NCBI GenBank assembly: GCA_963777505.1
Contig: CAVZQN010000011.1
Coordinates: 96,001-160,000 of the forward strand
Length of the DNA: 64,000 nucleotides
DNA from: an uncultured bacterium
Lineage (GTDB): Bacteria > Acidobacteriota > HRBIN11 > JAKEFK01
Reading direction: 5' to 3'
Positions 12,636 through 17,858 of the stretch are shown here, piece after piece (position 1 is the stretch's first letter; each line of letters begins with the position of its first letter). The notes beneath the pieces are model-generated. The model did not search any database. It saw only the letters and a program-made list of their open reading frames with translations, and was not told where the DNA came from. Position numbers and translations under genes: made by a program.

Positions 12636-12880
12636 ATGCAAGAACAACACTAACGAGTAAAGGTCAAATTACACTCCCGAAAGATATCAGGCAGAAGCTT
12701 GAATTGGAGGCGGGCGATCAAATTGATTTTATTATCATGCCTGATGGCGATGTGTTCCTAAGACCTGCAAAATACGACATTCTGAAATTGGAAGGATCGC
12801 TTCAAAGCAAAAAAAGAAAACCGGTTACGATTGAGCAAATGAATGTTGCCGTCCGGGAGAGGATGAAGAAGTTTCGATGA
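12636..12880 (+). CDS. AbrB/MazE/SpoVT-family antitoxin (VapB-like); absent from the ORF track because of a 1-nt indel just after the ATG
   Basis: Reading frame RTTLTSKGQITLPKDIRQKLELEAGDQIDF...PVTIEQMN...KKFR*; its stop overlaps the toxin start (ATGA). Confidence 0.85.
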
Positions 12881-13265
12881 TAGGGCTGGATACGAATGTC
12901 ATAATCCGGTTTTTAGTTATGGATGATCCCACGCAAGCCAAGAAGGCATCGACACTGGTTCGAACGGCTCTTAAGAATCAAGAGGAATTGTTTATCGATT
13001 CCGTTGTTCTTTGTGAAATGGTTTGGGTACTTGAGGGAGCTATGAATTTGCGAAAGATGAAATCGCGGATGTATTGGAAAAAATAATGACTGAGCTGATC
13101 GCAATACAAGATCGTGATGAAGCCTGGCTGCATTGAATGACTATCGGCAAGGGCGGGCTGACTTTTCGATTATTACATTGGCAGGATCAACAAAAATTCC
13201 GGAGCGATTACACCGTGACTTTTGATCAGGAATTAAAAGAAAGCGACCTTTTTGTTCTGTTATGA
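12877..13265 (+). CDS. vapC: VapC PIN-domain toxin, with several indels in the 3' half
   Basis: MIGLDTNVIIRFL, VLCEMVWVL; downstream frames give YRQGRADF..YYIG and TVTFDQ.L. Confidence 0.8.
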
Positions 13266-13282
13266 ACTTTGCGCCTCTGCGG

Positions 13283-13809
13283 TTAAGGAATAGAACGGCA
13301 CCGCACCCGTTTTTTCTCAGGGTCCACACAAAAACACCAGCATCGACATCCTCTTTTGTTGGATCCAATACCATAGCAATGTGATGCTTATCATTGAAAT
13401 AATGCTCATCAATAAATTGGTCCGCAGAAGATAAAAACACTCCATAACCAGGATGTGTATGAAACCAACCGACAACTTTTTTGTCAGGAAACTGCGCAGT
13501 TAGATCATCGTGTATTTGTGCTTGCGCCTCATTGTTAAATTCGAATGATGCGCGGCGCGAAACACCTTTACGAGCCGGAATAAAATCATGAATCTCAACA
13601 AACCATCTTCGTGAAGCTCGCGCGATCCGTCCTACAAGCACTCCTCCCAATTCATAGCTTGTATCAGATGATGCATATTCGCGGATTCGATCCAGAGCAT
13701 TTTGGACGATGTAAACGACCAGCAGTTTCATCGGGTATTCGCGATCCACTTTTGATGGAAGCCGGCTTCGTTCTGTCTTTTGTTTTATTCGCCGGATCTT
13801 GATTTCCAT
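13283..13809 (-). CDS. JAB/MPN (Mov34) metallo-isopeptidase (deubiquitinase-like)
   Basis: ELGGVLVG and GWFHTHPGYGVFLSSAD (JAMM E...HxH-x7-S-x2-D). The true stop is probably TAA at 13283; the ORF-track extension to 13141 overlaps vapC. Confidence 0.9.
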
Positions 13810-14324
13810 TACTTCGCTTCCTTGCTGTCTTTATGAAGAATCTTAATAACCACTTTTCCAGCCTTATCACGAATCGGACGCGAATCGAGAGGAAACATGT
13901 GCAAATTAAAACGTGCCCATTCCGCCGCTTTTTTATCTAATGGCGATTGAAGATTGTATTTAACATAACGTGCCATATCAGCAAGCTCTGATACAAATTC
14001 GGCTAATGACCAGCTTGGCGCCCACTGTCCGCTGTGACAAACAGCTTGTAACTTAATGTTCGGATGAAAGATCGGACTTAACCACGTCACATCTGGCGGT
14101 TGAGATGGATATTGCGCGCCTAATACAATTTGACACTTGTGTTCTTGAATAATCGCTGGCTTTCCCGATCCATCAGACATAATTCCTGGACAAATAAAAC
14201 GGATCTGATATTGATTCGGGGGATTTCCTGATGCCGAAAAATCGATGATCGATGATTCAGTTTTCAGACGCAGCATCTCTTCAAAATCATTTTTCATCCG
14301 GATCTGTCTGCGATTCATTTTCAT
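13809..14324 (-). CDS. Ubiquitin-conjugating enzyme E2 (UBC fold)
   Basis: YPSQPP.V.WLSPIFHPNI....VC (HPN motif and catalytic Cys), WAPSWSL, YNLQSPLDKKAAEW; stop overlaps the JAB start (TAATG). Confidence 0.9.
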   Translation of the reverse strand: MKMNRRQIRMKNDFEEMLRLKTESSIIDFSASGNPPNQYQIRFICPGIMSDGSGKPAIIQEHKCQIVLGAQYPSQPPDVTWLSPIFHPNIKLQAVCHSGQWAPSWSLAEFVSELADMARYVKYNLQSPLDKKAAEWARFNLHMFPLDSRPIRDKAGKVVIKILHKDSKEAK

Positions 14325-14369
14325 TTCGTGAAGTAAAACGCCAATTATTTTGTTTGGTGTCTTTATCTT

Positions 14370-14651
14370 TTAGCGGTTGAGTTTTCCGGCAACAAACGTG
14401 GACGTCAACAAAAGTAAATCTCCGTTCTTTGTTGCGTATTCACCAAGTGTTTTGTTTTGCTTTAACTCCTGGCTGGTTCGTTTGTTTGAAAGCTGGTACG
14501 AGATCCGATTACCATCCGGTCCGACAAGAGGAAGCCCAAGTTGTTGCACCAACTGAGGCAACAAATCATCCAGCTTTGCGTCATCCGGCAATTCGACTTC
14601 GTATTCTTGATTTGTATCGGCGCGAACAACTGTAACGGTTATTTGTGACAT
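14370..14651 (-). CDS. Ubiquitin-like protein (EsaB/YukD beta-grasp) with C-terminal ...FVAG-KLNR
   Basis: Beta-grasp pattern ITVTVV..EYEVELP..LDDLLPQLVQQL..KTLGEY..KNGDLLLL; lies between the E1 and E2 genes. Confidence 0.85.
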   Translation of the reverse strand: MSQITVTVVRADTNQEYEVELPDDAKLDDLLPQLVQQLGLPLVGPDGNRISYQLSNKRTSQELKQNKTLGEYATKNGDLLLLTSTFVAGKLNR

Positions 14652-14691: not shown

Positions 14692-15828
14692 TTAATCCAA
14701 GACAAAAAATATTCGATCATTTTGAGTCTCAGCACAATAGATATGCTCCGATGGAAATCCCAATTCCCGAAAACTCTTGTTTCCCCAGCTTTCTGTACCT
14801 TCATAGGCAACAGCAATCTGAGGTTTGAAAACGCCTCCGCAATCGCAAAACGCCGAACCATTGTATAAGGATTGCGTTCCTGTAAATTCTTCATTTTTAC
14901 CGCATTGAATACACATTAAAGATGTCAGCAAATTTCGATCAAAGTCCCAGATCAATCGATCGGCATTCCATTCTTGTTTTGCAGCTTGAAGAACAGTTTG
15001 AATAGGATCACTTTGACGCACTCTCAATTGTTTTATTTCCCCAATCGGATCTGCGGATGCATGCAGTCCACAGTCTTCTGAAATTTCCAATGCTATGTCA
15101 AAGAAAACATCGCTTAAACCGTAAAGGCCAAGCCTTTTACCTGCGGGAACCTGCAATCCATGCAACTGCCTGACTCCAATCTGTACCTGAAGTGCTCCAA
15201 TAATGGATGCAATGGTTGGAGCAGTTGGTACATGTTGCTTAATTTCCGGATCCGTACTTTTTAGACATGAGATCCGTTTTTGAAGTTCCGCTCGATCGAC
15301 TCCGCTCAGAGTGCACTCATAACATGCCGTCGCCGGCGGCATAAATACCGAAACGGATCCATTTAGAGTGTCCAGGCCCCCGTCGATGAAAGGTTTTTTC
15401 AGAAAATATGCATATCGATTCATTGCATATCTCGCTTCACGATTGTCCAAACAGCCCAGGATTAAATCCATTTGCGATAAGAATCCGAATCCGAGATCGT
15501 AACGAACATCAATTCTTAACGGAACAAACGATGAATCGGGATTCATTTCAGAGGCACGAGCGGCAAGAACATCCGTTTTCCATTTTCCAACGTCATCGGC
15601 TCTAAAGAGTGCTGAGCGTGTCAGGTTTGTGGTCTCTATGCGGTCAAAGTCGACAATCCAAACTTTGCCAATTCCAAGCAGCGCAAGGTTTTTGACGACT
15701 TCATTTCCAAGAGCTCCAGCACCGACAACCAGAACGCGTGCGTGCTTTAGTTTTTCCTGATCCCACCAGCGAATTAATTTGAGCCGCTGATATCGATCCG
15801 TTTCAGGATCCGTTAGACGCAGCGTCAT
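14692..15828 (-). CDS. Ubiquitin-activating E1-like enzyme (ThiF/UBA3-like) with a C-terminal Zn/Ub-fold-like extension
   Basis: DRYQR, VVGAGALGNEVVKNLALLG, DFDRIETTNLTR, CLDNREAR, ACYECT...RISC (candidate catalytic Cys), CGLH, CIQC...CDC. Confidence 0.9.
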   Translation of the reverse strand: MTLRLTDPETDRYQRLKLIRWWDQEKLKHARVLVVGAGALGNEVVKNLALLGIGKVWIVDFDRIETTNLTRSALFRADDVGKWKTDVLAARASEMNPDSSFVPLRIDVRYDLGFGFLSQMDLILGCLDNREARYAMNRYAYFLKKPFIDGGLDTLNGSVSVFMPPATACYECTLSGVDRAELQKRISCLKSTDPEIKQHVPTAPTIASIIGALQVQIGVRQLHGLQVPAGKRLGLYGLSDVFFDIALEISEDCGLHASADPIGEIKQLRVRQSDPIQTVLQAAKQEWNADRLIWDFDRNLLTSLMCIQCGKNEEFTGTQSLYNGSAFCDCGGVFKPQIAVAYEGTESWGNKSFRELGFPSEHIYCAETQNDRIFFVLD

Positions 15829-16631
15829 AGCTGTGATTCTACCTGCTTTCGGACTTCATGTATTTCAGCTTCCATCGCTGAAAAACGTTGCTTAATTTTT
15901 TCCAAAGTAGCAGTTAGCTCATCCTCGCGCATACGAAAGTAGGTGTGATAATCGCGGCAGCATTCGTGCAGATCATGATCAATTTGAAACAGAAAATCGG
16001 AAAAAAGAATTCGGCCTGCAGGATTCCGTTTGTAAAAACTTTCAACAATTCTGTGGCCAATGAGTACAGTCTCAACCCATTTCAAACGCATGGCTGGACT
16101 TTGCAGTAATTTTGATACTGCGCGAACTTCCGATTGCGTAGAAGGAGACAAGAAAAAGGGAAGTGGTGCACCGGATTTAAATAGAGATGGTTTCGGTTTT
16201 CGAGTCAGCTTTTTTTTCTCATCTGGCTTAGTTTGAATCTCTGCCTCAACTTTTTCTGCAAGCAATACTTCCTTCCAATGCTGCAAAATAGAAGGATCGG
16301 TTTGCTCAATCATGGTCCAGGGTAGAGAGTGAAAAGCTTTCAGGTAGTCGTAATCCTTTCTTCCTGTCAGCGCTTGAAGTATGGACGCTACTTCTCCTAG
16401 ACGTCCCTCTGGAATTGAAAGGATCTTCAAATACGCAAGAGTCGGTTTTATCGCGGAAACTTCTCCAAGACACTGAGGGCAGTACCAATGATGTGCATGA
16501 TAACGATTGTGACAACTCTTGCAAGCAAATACTTGTATTTCACGGACTTCAATTGGAGGAGGTTCAACGGGCGATGTGCGGTTTGTAGAACGGCGTTTAA
16601 TGCGGACTTTAATACGATTCAAAAAACTCAT
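15825..16631 (-). CDS. Hypothetical protein: Zn-ribbon/RING-like motif, L7/L12-CTD-like segment and helical C-terminus
   Basis: ATG at 16631, 7 nt after the macrodomain stop; CKSCHNRYHAHHWYCPQC; stop overlaps the E1 start (ATGA). Confidence 0.75.
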   Translation of the reverse strand: MSFLNRIKVRIKRRSTNRTSPVEPPPIEVREIQVFACKSCHNRYHAHHWYCPQCLGEVSAIKPTLAYLKILSIPEGRLGEVASILQALTGRKDYDYLKAFHSLPWTMIEQTDPSILQHWKEVLLAEKVEAEIQTKPDEKKKLTRKPKPSLFKSGAPLPFFLSPSTQSEVRAVSKLLQSPAMRLKWVETVLIGHRIVESFYKRNPAGRILFSDFLFQIDHDLHECCRDYHTYFRMREDELTATLEKIKQRFSAMEAEIHEVRKQVESQL

Positions 16632-16638
16632 CGATATT

Positions 16639-17175
16639 TTACGAAGCTGCCTTAAAAATCCGCATTGCAGTTGTATTAAAAATTTTCTCGGCGGACTCAT
16701 CGAACAAACAAAATCGTATTTCTTGAAGCTTCGTTTCACCCTCACAATATTGATGAACGACTTGCAGCATAATTTCTGCACAGCGTTCCATAGGATAGCC
16801 GAATATTCCTGTGCTGATTGCTGGAAAACTAATAGTATGAATTGCTTCACTATCGGCTAAACGTAAGCTGTTTGAAGTGGCATTCCGAAGTTTTTCATCT
16901 TCATCCCCTTCGCCCATTCTTGGTCCAACCGCATGAATGATGTAAGGTGCTTTTAAATCTCCTCCGGTGGTTATGGCAGCACTCCCAACAGGAACGAATC
17001 CGACCCTGTCTGATTCATCCTGAATGATTTTACCCCCTTTACGAACAATGGCGGCTGCAACACCTCCGCCATGCTGAAGTTGAGAATTTGCAGCATTAAC
17101 GATGGCTCCAGTGTCTTCTTCAGTGATATCTGCACGCTTTACTATAATTGTAGTATTACCAGCCTGATAATTCAC
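16639..17175 (-). CDS. Macrodomain protein (MacroD/YmdB-like ADP-ribose hydrolase)
   Basis: ADIT, AIVNAAN, GGGVAAAI, IIHAVGP, ISFPAISTGIFGYP. Confidence 0.92.
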   Translation of the reverse strand: MNYQAGNTTIIVKRADITEEDTGAIVNAANSQLQHGGGVAAAIVRKGGKIIQDESDRVGFVPVGSAAITTGGDLKAPYIIHAVGPRMGEGDEDEKLRNATSNSLRLADSEAIHTISFPAISTGIFGYPMERCAEIMLQVVHQYCEGETKLQEIRFCLFDESAEKIFNTTAMRIFKAAS

Positions 17176-17195
17176 GAAAAAAAACCACCTTTCCC

Positions 17196-17858
17196 TTATC
17201 CTAACATAACTCTTTTTTTGCTCTTTTGTAGGTCTTTTGGGGCAATAAGTTGATCCAGCCGCAATCGGATCCGTTCAAGAGCCGTAACAGGAGTTTCCTG
17301 CAGATCCAACGATATGGCAGATTCAGGAATTTGAATTTTAGGATGATCGGATGTGCCTTTCTTTTTATTCAGGATAATGAAATTGGCTCCGTTCAGGATT
17401 TGTTCAGCATTATCTTTCCAACGCGATGGTGGAATGTTGTTTGCTGCAACATAAAACATCAGATCGGGTTTGCATATCGATGTAACTGTGCTTCCTTCCA
17501 TGATGGTCAAGGCATTTTTGGGAAGGTGTTCAATGAGATGTTGAAACGCTTCAGCAAGATATGATTTTCTGGAAATGATCCAAACCACTTCCTTTGCGCC
17601 TGCCGCAGCAAGTCGTTGCGTGTTTTTTCCTGATTGCATCAAAACTGCAGGATCGCGAACAATACGGAAGCGATCGGATAAATCGCAAACTGTACATGGT
17701 GCCCCGCGTGGACACGGAGATGGAATATCGGTGGTGGTTGTAAACTTTACCGCATACACGGGAATATTCTGGTCAGCGAAGTATCGGATTAATTGCTCCG
17801 CGAGCAAAGTTTTTCCAGCGCGGCTCGTTGCACCCGCAACGCTGATGATCCGAATGTC
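17196..17858 (-). CDS. MobB-like P-loop NTPase with a Cys cluster; start uncertain
   Basis: The frame upstream of the ORF-track start reads IRIISVAGATSRAGKTL (Walker A); CPRGAPCTVC; GKNTQRLAAAGA; IMEGS. Confidence 0.7.
   Translation of the reverse strand, partial: DIRIISVAGATSRAGKTLLAEQLIRYFADQNIPVYAVKFTTTTDIPSPCPRGAPCTVCDLSDRFRIVRDPAVLMQSGKNTQRLAAAGAKEVVWIISRKSYLAEAFQHLIEHLPKNALTIMEGSTVTSICKPDLMFYVAANNIPPSRWKDNAEQILNGANFIILNKKKGTSDHPKIQIPESAISLDLQETPVTALERIRLRLDQLIAPKDLQKSKKRVMLG

What the first reader, a model, noticed from the sequence alone, without database searches (positions are those of the whole stretch)
14370..14395. Ubl is encoded as a pro-protein: ...TFVAG|KLNR
Seen: the beta-grasp domain ends in a single Gly (VAG) followed by a 4-residue tail, KLNR. 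Established: E1 enzymes adenylate a free C-terminal Gly, and JAB peptidases mature Ubl precursors. Inference: the co-encoded JAB must remove KLNR before conjugation, giving a licensing step and a mono-Gly (AG) rather than GG remnant.
Basis: partly seen in the sequence, partly recalled or inferred. Interest (0 to 1): 0.7.

Follow-up and report, generated by a model that had tools for sequence, protein, structure and literature searches.

The report
Bacterial ubiquitin-like protein made as precursor
A small ubiquitin-like protein in a bacterial E1/E2/peptidase gene cluster is encoded with four extra residues after its reactive glycine, an ordinary precursor arrangement already demonstrated in related archaeal and bacterial systems.

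Summary
A 93-aa beta-grasp protein (window 14370-14651, minus strand) ends ...LLLTSTFVAG-KLNR-stop. It sits in a cluster ordered E1, Ubl, E2, Rpn11-like JAB peptidase.

In 68 of 69 homologs the TSTFVAG end is kept. What follows the Gly is 0-75 residues of unrelated sequence. Among close relatives the DNA stops being alignable exactly after the Gly codon.

The catalytic residues of JAB, E2 and E1 are invariant. A complex model threads Ubl residues 83-91 across the JAB metal site, scoring 0.81 against 0.20 for the best control.

The most likely reading is a pro-Ubl trimmed by the co-encoded JAB at Gly89|Lys90, leaving an Ala-Gly end. This is inferred, not shown.

A regulatory "licensing" step is not supported. 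The tails look like unselected read-through into the spacer. Tail-less homologs exist (5 of 68; 4 of 21 genome loci) and still keep the JAB.

The mechanism is already demonstrated. Caldiarchaeum Rpn11 removes a 9-aa tail from pro-ubiquitin. BilC cuts BilA after Ala-Gly.

Verdict: a new, uncharacterised member of a known kind, of modest interest.

The parts
14370..14651 (-). Ubl precursor gene, 93 aa, beta-grasp (Pfam YukD family), ends LLLTSTFVAG|KLNR
14385..14390 (-). Codons for Ala88-Gly89, the conserved C-terminal end of the predicted mature Ubl
   Evidence: A88 and G89 are nearly invariant in 70 aligned sequences. 'AG' is found at 122 of 126 domain ends among cluster representatives.
14370..14384 (-). 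Four-codon tail KLNR plus stop TAA; predicted pro-peptide, unconserved
   Evidence: Residues 91-93 average pLDDT 46.
13141..13809 (-). JAB/JAMM peptidase, Rpn11-like, 222-aa ORF. The core with E53, H117, H119, S127, D130 is intact. The last ~55 aa are unconserved and probably frameshifted.
13809..14324 (-). E2 (UQ_con) with H87-P88-N89 and C96. The true start is probably the second ATG, because relatives begin MNR..
14692..15828 (-). E1 (single ThiF adenylation domain, 378 aa) with a GxGxxG motif, four zinc Cys and invariant C188
15825..16631 (-). 268-aa protein overlapping the E1 start by 4 nt. It has an N-terminal CxxC...CxxC zinc ribbon and a helical rest. Function unknown, not a RING by ligand count. 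Found only in the Acidobacteriota relatives.
16639..17175 (-). Macro domain protein directly upstream, syntenic in the same bacterial family. A link to the Ubl system is not shown.

Best explanation
The gene encodes a ubiquitin-like modifier as a short precursor. The co-encoded Rpn11-like JAB metallopeptidase binds the beta-grasp body and lays the C-terminal strand (residues 83-91) across its zinc site. It hydrolyses the Gly89-Lys90 bond and releases KLNR. Only then does the free Gly89 carboxylate fit the E1, which adenylates it, takes it as a thioester (probably on Cys188) and passes it to Cys96 of the E2 for attachment to targets. This leaves an Ala-Gly end. The tail itself carries no information. 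Selection ends at the Gly codon and translation simply runs to the first in-frame stop of the spacer. This is tolerated because the JAB trims whatever follows the Gly. The JAB's conserved job is therefore double: maturation where a tail exists, and removal of the Ubl from conjugates. Shown here: the sequence, the conservation pattern, intact catalytic motifs and a passing complex model. Inferred: cleavage, the identity of the protease, E1/E2 chemistry and the targets.
For: Operon anatomy: E1, Ubl, E2 and JAB lie on one strand. The same order is seen in Acidobacteriota, Planctomycetota and Myxococcales records.

Cleavage-site signature: TSTFVAG is kept in 68 of 69 homologs. Tails are 0-75 aa, median 9, with no shared sequence. 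In seven genomes of one bacterial family the Ubl is 91-100% identical up to Gly, and the tails are KLNR, N, EARSYPF.., FQRRRGLA, VHHGV.., SFQC and LAFH. The DNA is unalignable from the first base after the Gly codon, while synonymous changes abound before it.

Wider family: 122 of 126 domain ends among the 150 listed cluster representatives read AG.

Enzymes intact: JAB E53/H117/H119/S127/D130 are invariant in 16 of 16. E2 HPN and C96 are invariant in 19 of 19. E1 GxGxxG, C188 and four zinc Cys are invariant in 18 of 18.

Complex model JAB(27-172)+Ubl: score 0.81, best of 3 controls 0.20. That mark was reached by 58 of 80 solved complexes and 2 of 110 mismatched pairs. The runs agree in at least 92% of contacts, and partner pLDDT is at least 89. 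The interface includes JAB 53, 117, 119, 127-130 and Ubl 83-91. Like complexes are solved, so the pass may reflect likeness.

Precedent: Caldiarchaeum pro-ubiquitin is refractory to E1 until Rpn11 removes 9 aa (PMC5654768, passages; PMC6043591, passages). BilC cuts BilA between Gly97 and Ala98, leaving an Ala-Gly remnant (10.1101/2023.09.26.559546, passages).
Against: No experiment on this system, and no RNA or protein data. The 3' end of this genome's JAB gene departs from all 15 relatives and reads in two other frames for the conserved last strand. This copy may therefore be impaired, or the assembly may be locally faulty. One related locus with room downstream of E2 (L023) has a tailed Ubl (RT) but no adjacent JAB. 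The genome holds a second Prok-JAB gene on another contig, so another peptidase cannot be excluded. The complex model could score from memory of solved JAMM-Ub complexes. E1 is not adjacent to the Ubl in the loci of G003 (L011), G006 (L010/L016) and L031.
Confidence: 0.78

Rival explanations
1. The tail is a regulated licensing device. Cells hold the Ubl inactive, and JAB cleavage is a controlled switch that starts conjugation.
For: A tail is present in most homologs: 63 of 68 proteins and 17 of 21 genome loci. Untrimmed pro-ubiquitin is inert to E1 in Caldiarchaeum.
Against: The tail has no conserved length or sequence. The DNA behaves like spacer directly after the Gly codon. Tail-less forms occur with a JAB still present (L021, L024, L027). 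JAB and Ubl lie in one cluster, so they are presumably made together. Median tail length is 9, against about 14 expected for a random first stop at 3/64 per codon. This is a rough comparison on related sequences.
Confidence: 0.1
2. The tail is an assembly artefact: an indel near the stop created KLNR, and the real gene ends at Gly.
For: About 1 kb away the assembly shows several apparent frameshifts: the JAB 3' end and the adjacent PIN gene. Indel errors in this record are therefore plausible.
Against: A 266-nt contig from a public run covers 14324-14589 without gaps. The two other frames after the Gly codon also give tails, not an immediate stop. E1, Ubl and E2 align end to end with relatives. 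Nearly all relatives have tails anyway.
Confidence: 0.04
3. The Ubl is trimmed, but by another peptidase (the second JAB of the genome or a general carboxypeptidase). The operon JAB only removes the Ubl from conjugates.
For: A second Prok-JAB match exists on contig C4. L023 has a tailed Ubl and no adjacent JAB. The JAB 3' end in this genome looks damaged.
Against: A JAB is found in 16 of the 17 related loci that have room downstream of E2. The complex model places the Gly89-Lys90 region at its metal site. In both studied relatives the operon JAMM does both jobs.
Confidence: 0.07
4. The protein is a non-conjugated YukD-type adaptor and its C-terminus is irrelevant.
For: Its best Pfam family is YukD. 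Bacillus YukD is reported not to be conjugated (PMC1779556, passage citing van den Ent and Lowe 2005).
Against: It is embedded between an E1 and an E2 with intact catalytic residues, next to a JAB. The Ala-Gly end is nearly invariant. No type VII secretion gene was seen among the neighbours scanned. The top structural match is Caldiarchaeum ubiquitin.
Confidence: 0.03

Closest known systems
Caldiarchaeum subterraneum ubiquitin operon (CsUb, E1, E2, small RING protein, CsRpn11)
   Same: It has separate Ub-like, single-chain E1, UBC-type E2 and Rpn11-like JAMM genes. The modifier is made with a short C-terminal pro-peptide that the JAMM removes and without whose removal E1 does not act. The Ubl model's best structural match is CsUb: 6fno_D, E 1.4e-6, TM 0.70. 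The JAB profile hits CsRpn11 at E 3.7e-16 and yeast Rpn11 at 3.9e-19.
   Different: The mature end here is Ala-Gly, not Gly-Gly. The Ubl falls in Pfam YukD and is only about 22% identical to CsUb in the structural alignment. No RING E3 was found; the adjacent zinc-ribbon protein has only four invariant Cys. The host is bacterial.
Type II BilABCD (Ensifer aridi) anti-phage ubiquitination system
   Same: It is a bacterial Ubl + E2 + JAB + E1 operon. The JAB pre-processes the Ubl at a single conserved Gly preceded by Ala. Homologs carry up to nine residues after the Gly, and an Ala-Gly remnant is left on lysines. BilA (8tyx_A) ranks 7th among structural matches.
   Different: PADLOC Bil models do not recognise these proteins: BilA E 0.015, BilB and BilC none, BilD only a partial 1.5e-7 hit. 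BilC does not appear among PDB hits of the JAB profile at E <= 1. The E1 here has one adenylation domain, not an inactive plus an active one. The locus is syntenic and vertically conserved within a bacterial family next to housekeeping genes, unlike a typical defence island.
Eukaryotic ubiquitin/SUMO/NEDD8 precursors
   Same: They are translated with C-terminal extensions or as fusions and matured by a dedicated protease before E1 activation (stated in PMC5654768). The E1, E2 and JAB here are most similar in sequence to eukaryotic UBA7/UBA1, UBC enzymes and Rpn11.
   Different: Maturation in eukaryotes is by cysteine-protease DUBs/ULPs, while Rpn11 is confined to the proteasome (PMC6043591). 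The eukaryotic end is Gly-Gly.
YukD (Bacillus subtilis), Pfam PF08817
   Same: The Pfam hit is above the curated cut-off and the fold is a beta-grasp.
   Different: Characterised YukD belongs to ESAT-6/type VII secretion clusters and is reported not to be conjugated (PMC1779556). Here the context is E1/E2/JAB and the end is a conserved Ala-Gly.

Membership tests
Prokaryotic eukaryote-like ubiquitin operon (Caldiarchaeum type) | Beta-grasp modifier with a conserved C-terminal Gly, made as a precursor | tested here: met
   The end is Ala-Gly rather than Gly-Gly.
Prokaryotic eukaryote-like ubiquitin operon (Caldiarchaeum type) | Rpn11-like JAMM peptidase with E...HxHx7SxxD | tested here: met
   Motif residues are invariant in 16 of 16. 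The best PDB sequence hits are Rpn11, CsRpn11 and CSN5.
Prokaryotic eukaryote-like ubiquitin operon (Caldiarchaeum type) | UBC-type E2 with HPN and catalytic Cys; E1 with nucleotide motif and Cys | tested here: met
Prokaryotic eukaryote-like ubiquitin operon (Caldiarchaeum type) | Small RING-finger E3 in the cluster | tested here: not met
   The adjacent 268-aa protein has only four invariant Cys and no Pfam RING hit. It was not found outside Acidobacteriota. Its structure model is too poor to search: pLDDT 64.8.
Bil (bacterial ISG15-like) systems | Proteins recognised by the BilA-D profiles | tested here: not met
   PADLOC: BilA E 0.015, BilB none, BilC none, BilD partial 1.5e-7. PADLOC dates from 2023 and may not represent type II Bil.
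Bil (bacterial ISG15-like) systems | E1 with an N-terminal inactive and a C-terminal active adenylation domain | tested here: not met
   A single ThiF match at residues 16-227 of 378. The defining architecture is taken from the abstract passages.
Bub (6E/DUF6527) operons | DUF6527 serine protease and Ubl-E2 or E2-E1 fusions | tested here: not met
   The genes are separate, and there is no DUF6527 hit among seven cluster proteins scanned.
Type II CBASS (Cap2/Cap3) | E2-E1 fusion acting on a CD-NTase | tested here: not met
   E1 and E2 are separate genes. PADLOC 'E1-E2' models match only the adenylation part of the E1. A CD-NTase was not searched for specifically.
YukD, PF08817 | Profile match above the curated cut-off | tested here: met
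   47.7 bits against 27
YukD, PF08817 | Type VII/ESAT-6 secretion gene neighbourhood | tested here: not met
   The neighbours are E1, E2, JAB, a macro domain protein, NuoF-like, IDH and a peptidase. This rests on ORF inspection and seven Pfam scans only.

The most novel reading that the evidence does not exclude
This four-gene cassette is a vertically kept, non-defence bacterial ubiquitin system. Its modifier is under ubiquitin-grade constraint, and its gene has no selected stop codon: the JAB acts as the functional 'terminator' of the protein. That freedom has let the family repeatedly capture C-terminal partners, giving natural Ubl-X fusion genes (DUF7417, zinc ribbons, TPR-like regions, a 143-aa domain) and tandem poly-Ubl genes. 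This would be a bacterial parallel to eukaryotic ubiquitin-fusion and polyubiquitin genes.
Probability: 0.25. Interest if true: 0.6.

Novelty: new member of a known kind. Interest (0 to 1): 0.3.

Why it matters
The mechanism is textbook for ubiquitin-like modifiers and has been shown for the two nearest prokaryotic systems, so the finding does not change understanding. Its value is as annotation: it marks Gly89 as the reactive end and Ala-Gly as the remnant to search for in proteomics. It also points to an uncharacterised bacterial cassette in Acidobacteriota and Planctomycetota records. The enzymes of this cassette resemble eukaryotic E1, E2 and Rpn11 more than they resemble Bil or CBASS proteins, and its modifier is more conserved than neighbouring housekeeping genes. 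That cassette could be a useful bacterial model for the origin of ubiquitin signalling.

Tried and rejected
- Sequencing runs: no listed run holds more than 0.18 of the sampled words, and no RNA holder is listed. Of four runs laid, only one contig (X1) bridges the stop, X3 gave nothing, and all records are contigs, so no depth or expression statement is possible.
- The Ubl profile against PDB sequences gave only one chance-level hit at E 0.55.
- Burroughs et al. 2011 (PMC5938088) is cited by PMC4197634 for related operons in Actinobacteria, Planctomycetes and Acidobacteria, but it is not held. I could not see whether it already describes this Ubl family or its Ala-Gly end. Supplementary tables of the Bil/Bub papers were not consulted.
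- The structure model of the 268-aa zinc-ribbon protein reached only pLDDT 64.8 from 4 sequences, so no fold search was run on it.
- A search for a fifth conserved gene (an E3 or a target) across 21 loci found only the four core genes. A Ser/Thr-kinase-like ORF lies downstream of the JAB in 9 Planctomycetota loci. Antisense and spurious ORF clusters in that output were ignored.
- An earlier BLAST clustering suggested a JAB in 19 loci. A JAB profile search corrected this to 16.
- Two literature searches failed on a too-short term and were re-sent.

Full report
**Observation.** On the minus strand, 14370-14372 is the stop codon. 14373-14384 encodes KLNR, 14385-14387 encodes Gly89, and Ala88, Val87 and Phe86 precede it. 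The ORF 14370-14651 gives a 93-aa protein ending LLLTSTFVAGKLNR. It matches Pfam YukD (PF08817, E 2.8e-12, 47.7 bits against a cut-off of 27). An AlphaFold2 model built on 70 sequences has mean pLDDT 84.5 and the beta-grasp order strand-strand-helix-strand-strand, with the last three residues at mean pLDDT 46. Its best Foldseek match in the PDB is Caldiarchaeum subterraneum ubiquitin in complex with its Rpn11 homolog (6fno_D, E 1.4e-6, TM 0.70). SUMO1, ubiquitin variants and the bacterial BilA (8tyx_A, rank 7) follow.

**Surroundings.** The gene lies in a same-strand cluster:
- a macro domain protein (16639-17175);
- a 268-aa zinc-ribbon protein (15825-16631, overlapping the next start by 4 nt);
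- an E1 with one ThiF domain (14692-15828);
- the Ubl;
- an E2 of the UQ_con family (13809-14324);
- a JAB peptidase (13141-13809).

By sequence against PDB chains, the enzymes resemble eukaryotic and archaeal ones. The E1 is closest to the active adenylation domains of UBA7 and UBA1 (E 2.5e-30). The E2 is closest to eukaryotic UBC enzymes. The JAB is closest to yeast Rpn11 and the Caldiarchaeum Rpn11 homolog. With a 16-sequence JAB profile the order is Rpn11 (3.9e-19), human PSMD14, CsRpn11 (3.7e-16), then CSN5, and no Bil or CBASS peptidase appears at E <= 1. PADLOC does not recognise the set as Bil: BilA E 0.015, BilB and BilC none, BilD a partial 1.5e-7 hit.

**Is the Gly invariant and the tail variable?** Yes.
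- A search of 5.8 billion proteins gave 69 homologs at E <= 0.001 among 73 candidates. Sixty-eight carry TST[FV][VIL]AG, and the remaining one is a 53-aa fragment.
- Counting the window as well (69 rows), the sequence after Gly is 0 to 75 residues long, with median 9 and mean 16. Five rows have no tail. The first residue after Gly is R 14, A 9, K 8, S 8, G 7, L 6, N 5 and others 7, so Gly-Gly is not conserved.
- In seven genomes of one bacterial family the Ubl is found in all of them (6 of 6 relatives, against 0 of 34 other genomes of the class and phylum with this query). It is 91-100% identical up to Gly. The tails are KLNR, N, EARSYPFREFRAFRA, FQRRRGLA, VHHGVTENTEKERNILAP, SFQC and LAFH.
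- At the DNA level, many synonymous differences precede the Gly codon, and nothing is alignable from the next base on. Selection therefore ends exactly at Gly89, and the stop is simply the first one met in the spacer.
- In a profile-free scan of 1.84 billion cluster representatives, 355 proteins match at E <= 0.001. Among the 150 listed, 126 domain matches reach the profile end. Of these, 122 read AG, 1 reads GG, 2 read otherwise and 1 runs off the protein. After the last domain, 24 of 121 have no tail, 33 have 1-20 residues, 28 have 21-60 and 36 have more than 60.
- These sequences are related to each other and partly overlap with the genome loci below, so the counts are not independent events.

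**Enzymes and model.**
- JAB: the JAMM residues E53, H117, H119, S127 and D130 are invariant in 16 of 16 sequences.
- E2: H87-P88-N89 and C96 are invariant in 19 of 19.
- E1: the glycine-rich nucleotide motif, four zinc cysteines and C188 are invariant in 18 of 18. That C188 is the catalytic cysteine is my inference from its position.
- Complex: a prediction of JAB residues 27-172 with the full Ubl scored 0.81 against 0.20 for the best of 3 controls. That mark was reached by 58 of 80 solved complexes and 2 of 110 mismatched pairs. The runs agree in at least 92% of contacts, and partner pLDDT is at least 89. The confident interface includes JAB 53, 117, 119 and 127-130 and Ubl 83-91. The strand that carries the Gly89-Lys90 bond thus lies on the metal site, and JAB 87-100 pairs with Ubl 83-88. 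Similar JAMM-ubiquitin complexes are solved, so the pass shows likeness and supports binding but does not prove it.

**Comparison with what is known.** In Caldiarchaeum the ubiquitin gene carries nine residues after Gly-Gly. The Rpn11 homolog removes them, and the full-length form is refractory to E1 while the cleaved or truncated form is activated (PMC5654768, passages; PMC6043591, passages and one section). In Ensifer aridi BilABCD, the JAB BilC cuts BilA between Gly97 and Ala98. Type II BilA homologs have up to nine residues after the conserved Gly, and conjugates carry an Ala-Gly remnant (10.1101/2023.09.26.559546, passages). A review states that related uncharacterised operons occur in Actinobacteria, Planctomycetes and Acidobacteria, citing Burroughs et al. 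2011 (PMC4197634, passages). I could not read that source. Gong et al. list the bacterial families so far studied as CBASS type II, Bil I/II and Bub I/II (10.1101/2024.11.21.623966, two sections). The present cassette fits none of them by the tests in the membership table. My searches found no experimental paper on it, within the limits of the held library.

**Against a 'licensing' step.** Tails are unconstrained. Four of 21 genome loci with a complete Ubl end have none (L020, L021, L024, L027). The three of these whose contig reaches beyond E2 keep a JAB with an intact motif. Overall a JAB is present in 16 of 17 loci with room downstream of E2, and L023 is the exception although its Ubl carries a two-residue tail. 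The JAB is therefore conserved for more than maturation, presumably for deconjugation as in the studied systems. The tail looks tolerated rather than used.

**Distribution and constraint.** The order E1-Ubl-E2-JAB recurs in records titled Acidobacteriota, Planctomycetota and Myxococcales. Within the window's family the cluster is syntenic, next to NuoF-like, isocitrate dehydrogenase and aminopeptidase genes. The Ubl is the best-conserved gene:
- Against one relative (L009): Ubl 91%, E2 73%, E1 68%, JAB 60%, NuoF-like 78%, IDH 80%.
- Across phyla: Ubl 64-70%, E2 46-55%, E1 44-47%, JAB 34-45%.

No fifth gene is shared across phyla.

**Reliability of the record.** The JAB ORF of the window departs from all relatives after about residue 165. 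The conserved last strand is readable only in the two other frames. The convergent PIN gene next to it is broken over several frames compared with its relative. So the stretch around 12.9-13.35 kb is either decayed or poorly assembled. About 1 kb away, E1, Ubl and E2 align end to end with relatives. One public contig bridges the Ubl stop without gaps. Neither alternative frame would put a stop directly after Gly.

**Verdict.** The precursor reading is well supported by comparison and modelling. The protease assignment is probable, and the regulatory gloss is unsupported. The mechanism is known, and this is a new, uncharacterised member of a known kind.

Noticed in passing
window 13141-13330 (minus strand): The 3' end of the JAB gene differs from 15 relatives. 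After ...VFVWT the window frame runs on for about 55 unconserved residues. The conserved ending (..EK.R.RVPFY.L) appears piecewise in the two other frames, around an A6 run. This is either an assembly indel error or real decay.
   Followed up: partly
window 12877-13300 (plus strand): The PIN (VapC-like) gene after the AbrB-type antitoxin gene (12704-12880) is only 69 aa in frame. Its continuation, compared with the intact relative in L013, is spread over several frames. This second multiply frameshifted gene directly abuts the JAB 3' end.
   Followed up: partly
proteins P0042, P0048, P0057, P0089-P0091, P0093, P0106, P0107, P0113, P0094, P0099; locus L033:2079-2780: In the wider family the Ubl is fused, directly after Ala-Gly, to other domains. 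These include DUF7417 (PF24192, E about 1e-22), small zinc ribbons, a weak TPR-like hit, and a 143-aa region in an Eisenbacteria record that has no adjacent E1/E2/JAB. They resemble eukaryotic ubiquitin-fusion genes.
   Followed up: partly
proteins P0112, P0130, P0147: These proteins have two to eight tandem copies of the Ubl domain. In P0112 and P0130 each copy that reaches the profile end finishes in Ala-Gly. They are head-to-tail poly-Ubl genes.
   Followed up: no
L008:7545-8374; L009:8701-10379: In two relatives an extra stretch separates E1 and Ubl: about 0.8 kb with a 244-aa hydrophobic ORF in one, and about 1.7 kb with a 526-aa ORF in the other. In the loci of G003, G006 and L031, no E1 was found within about 6 kb upstream of the Ubl.
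   Followed up: no
L018, L019, L021, L024-L028, L030, downstream of JAB: A Ser/Thr-protein-kinase-like ORF follows the JAB in 9 Planctomycetota loci. It was not found in the Acidobacteriota loci.
   Followed up: no
window 15825-17807 (minus strand): A macro domain protein, a 203-aa protein and the 268-aa zinc-ribbon protein are syntenic with the cassette in the Acidobacteriota relatives. The zinc-ribbon gene overlaps the E1 start. Whether ADP-ribose chemistry is linked to the Ubl system is unknown.
   Followed up: partly
window 14370-14651 compared with neighbours: The Ubl is more conserved between genera (91%) than the adjacent NuoF-like (78%) and isocitrate dehydrogenase (80%) genes.
   Followed up: yes
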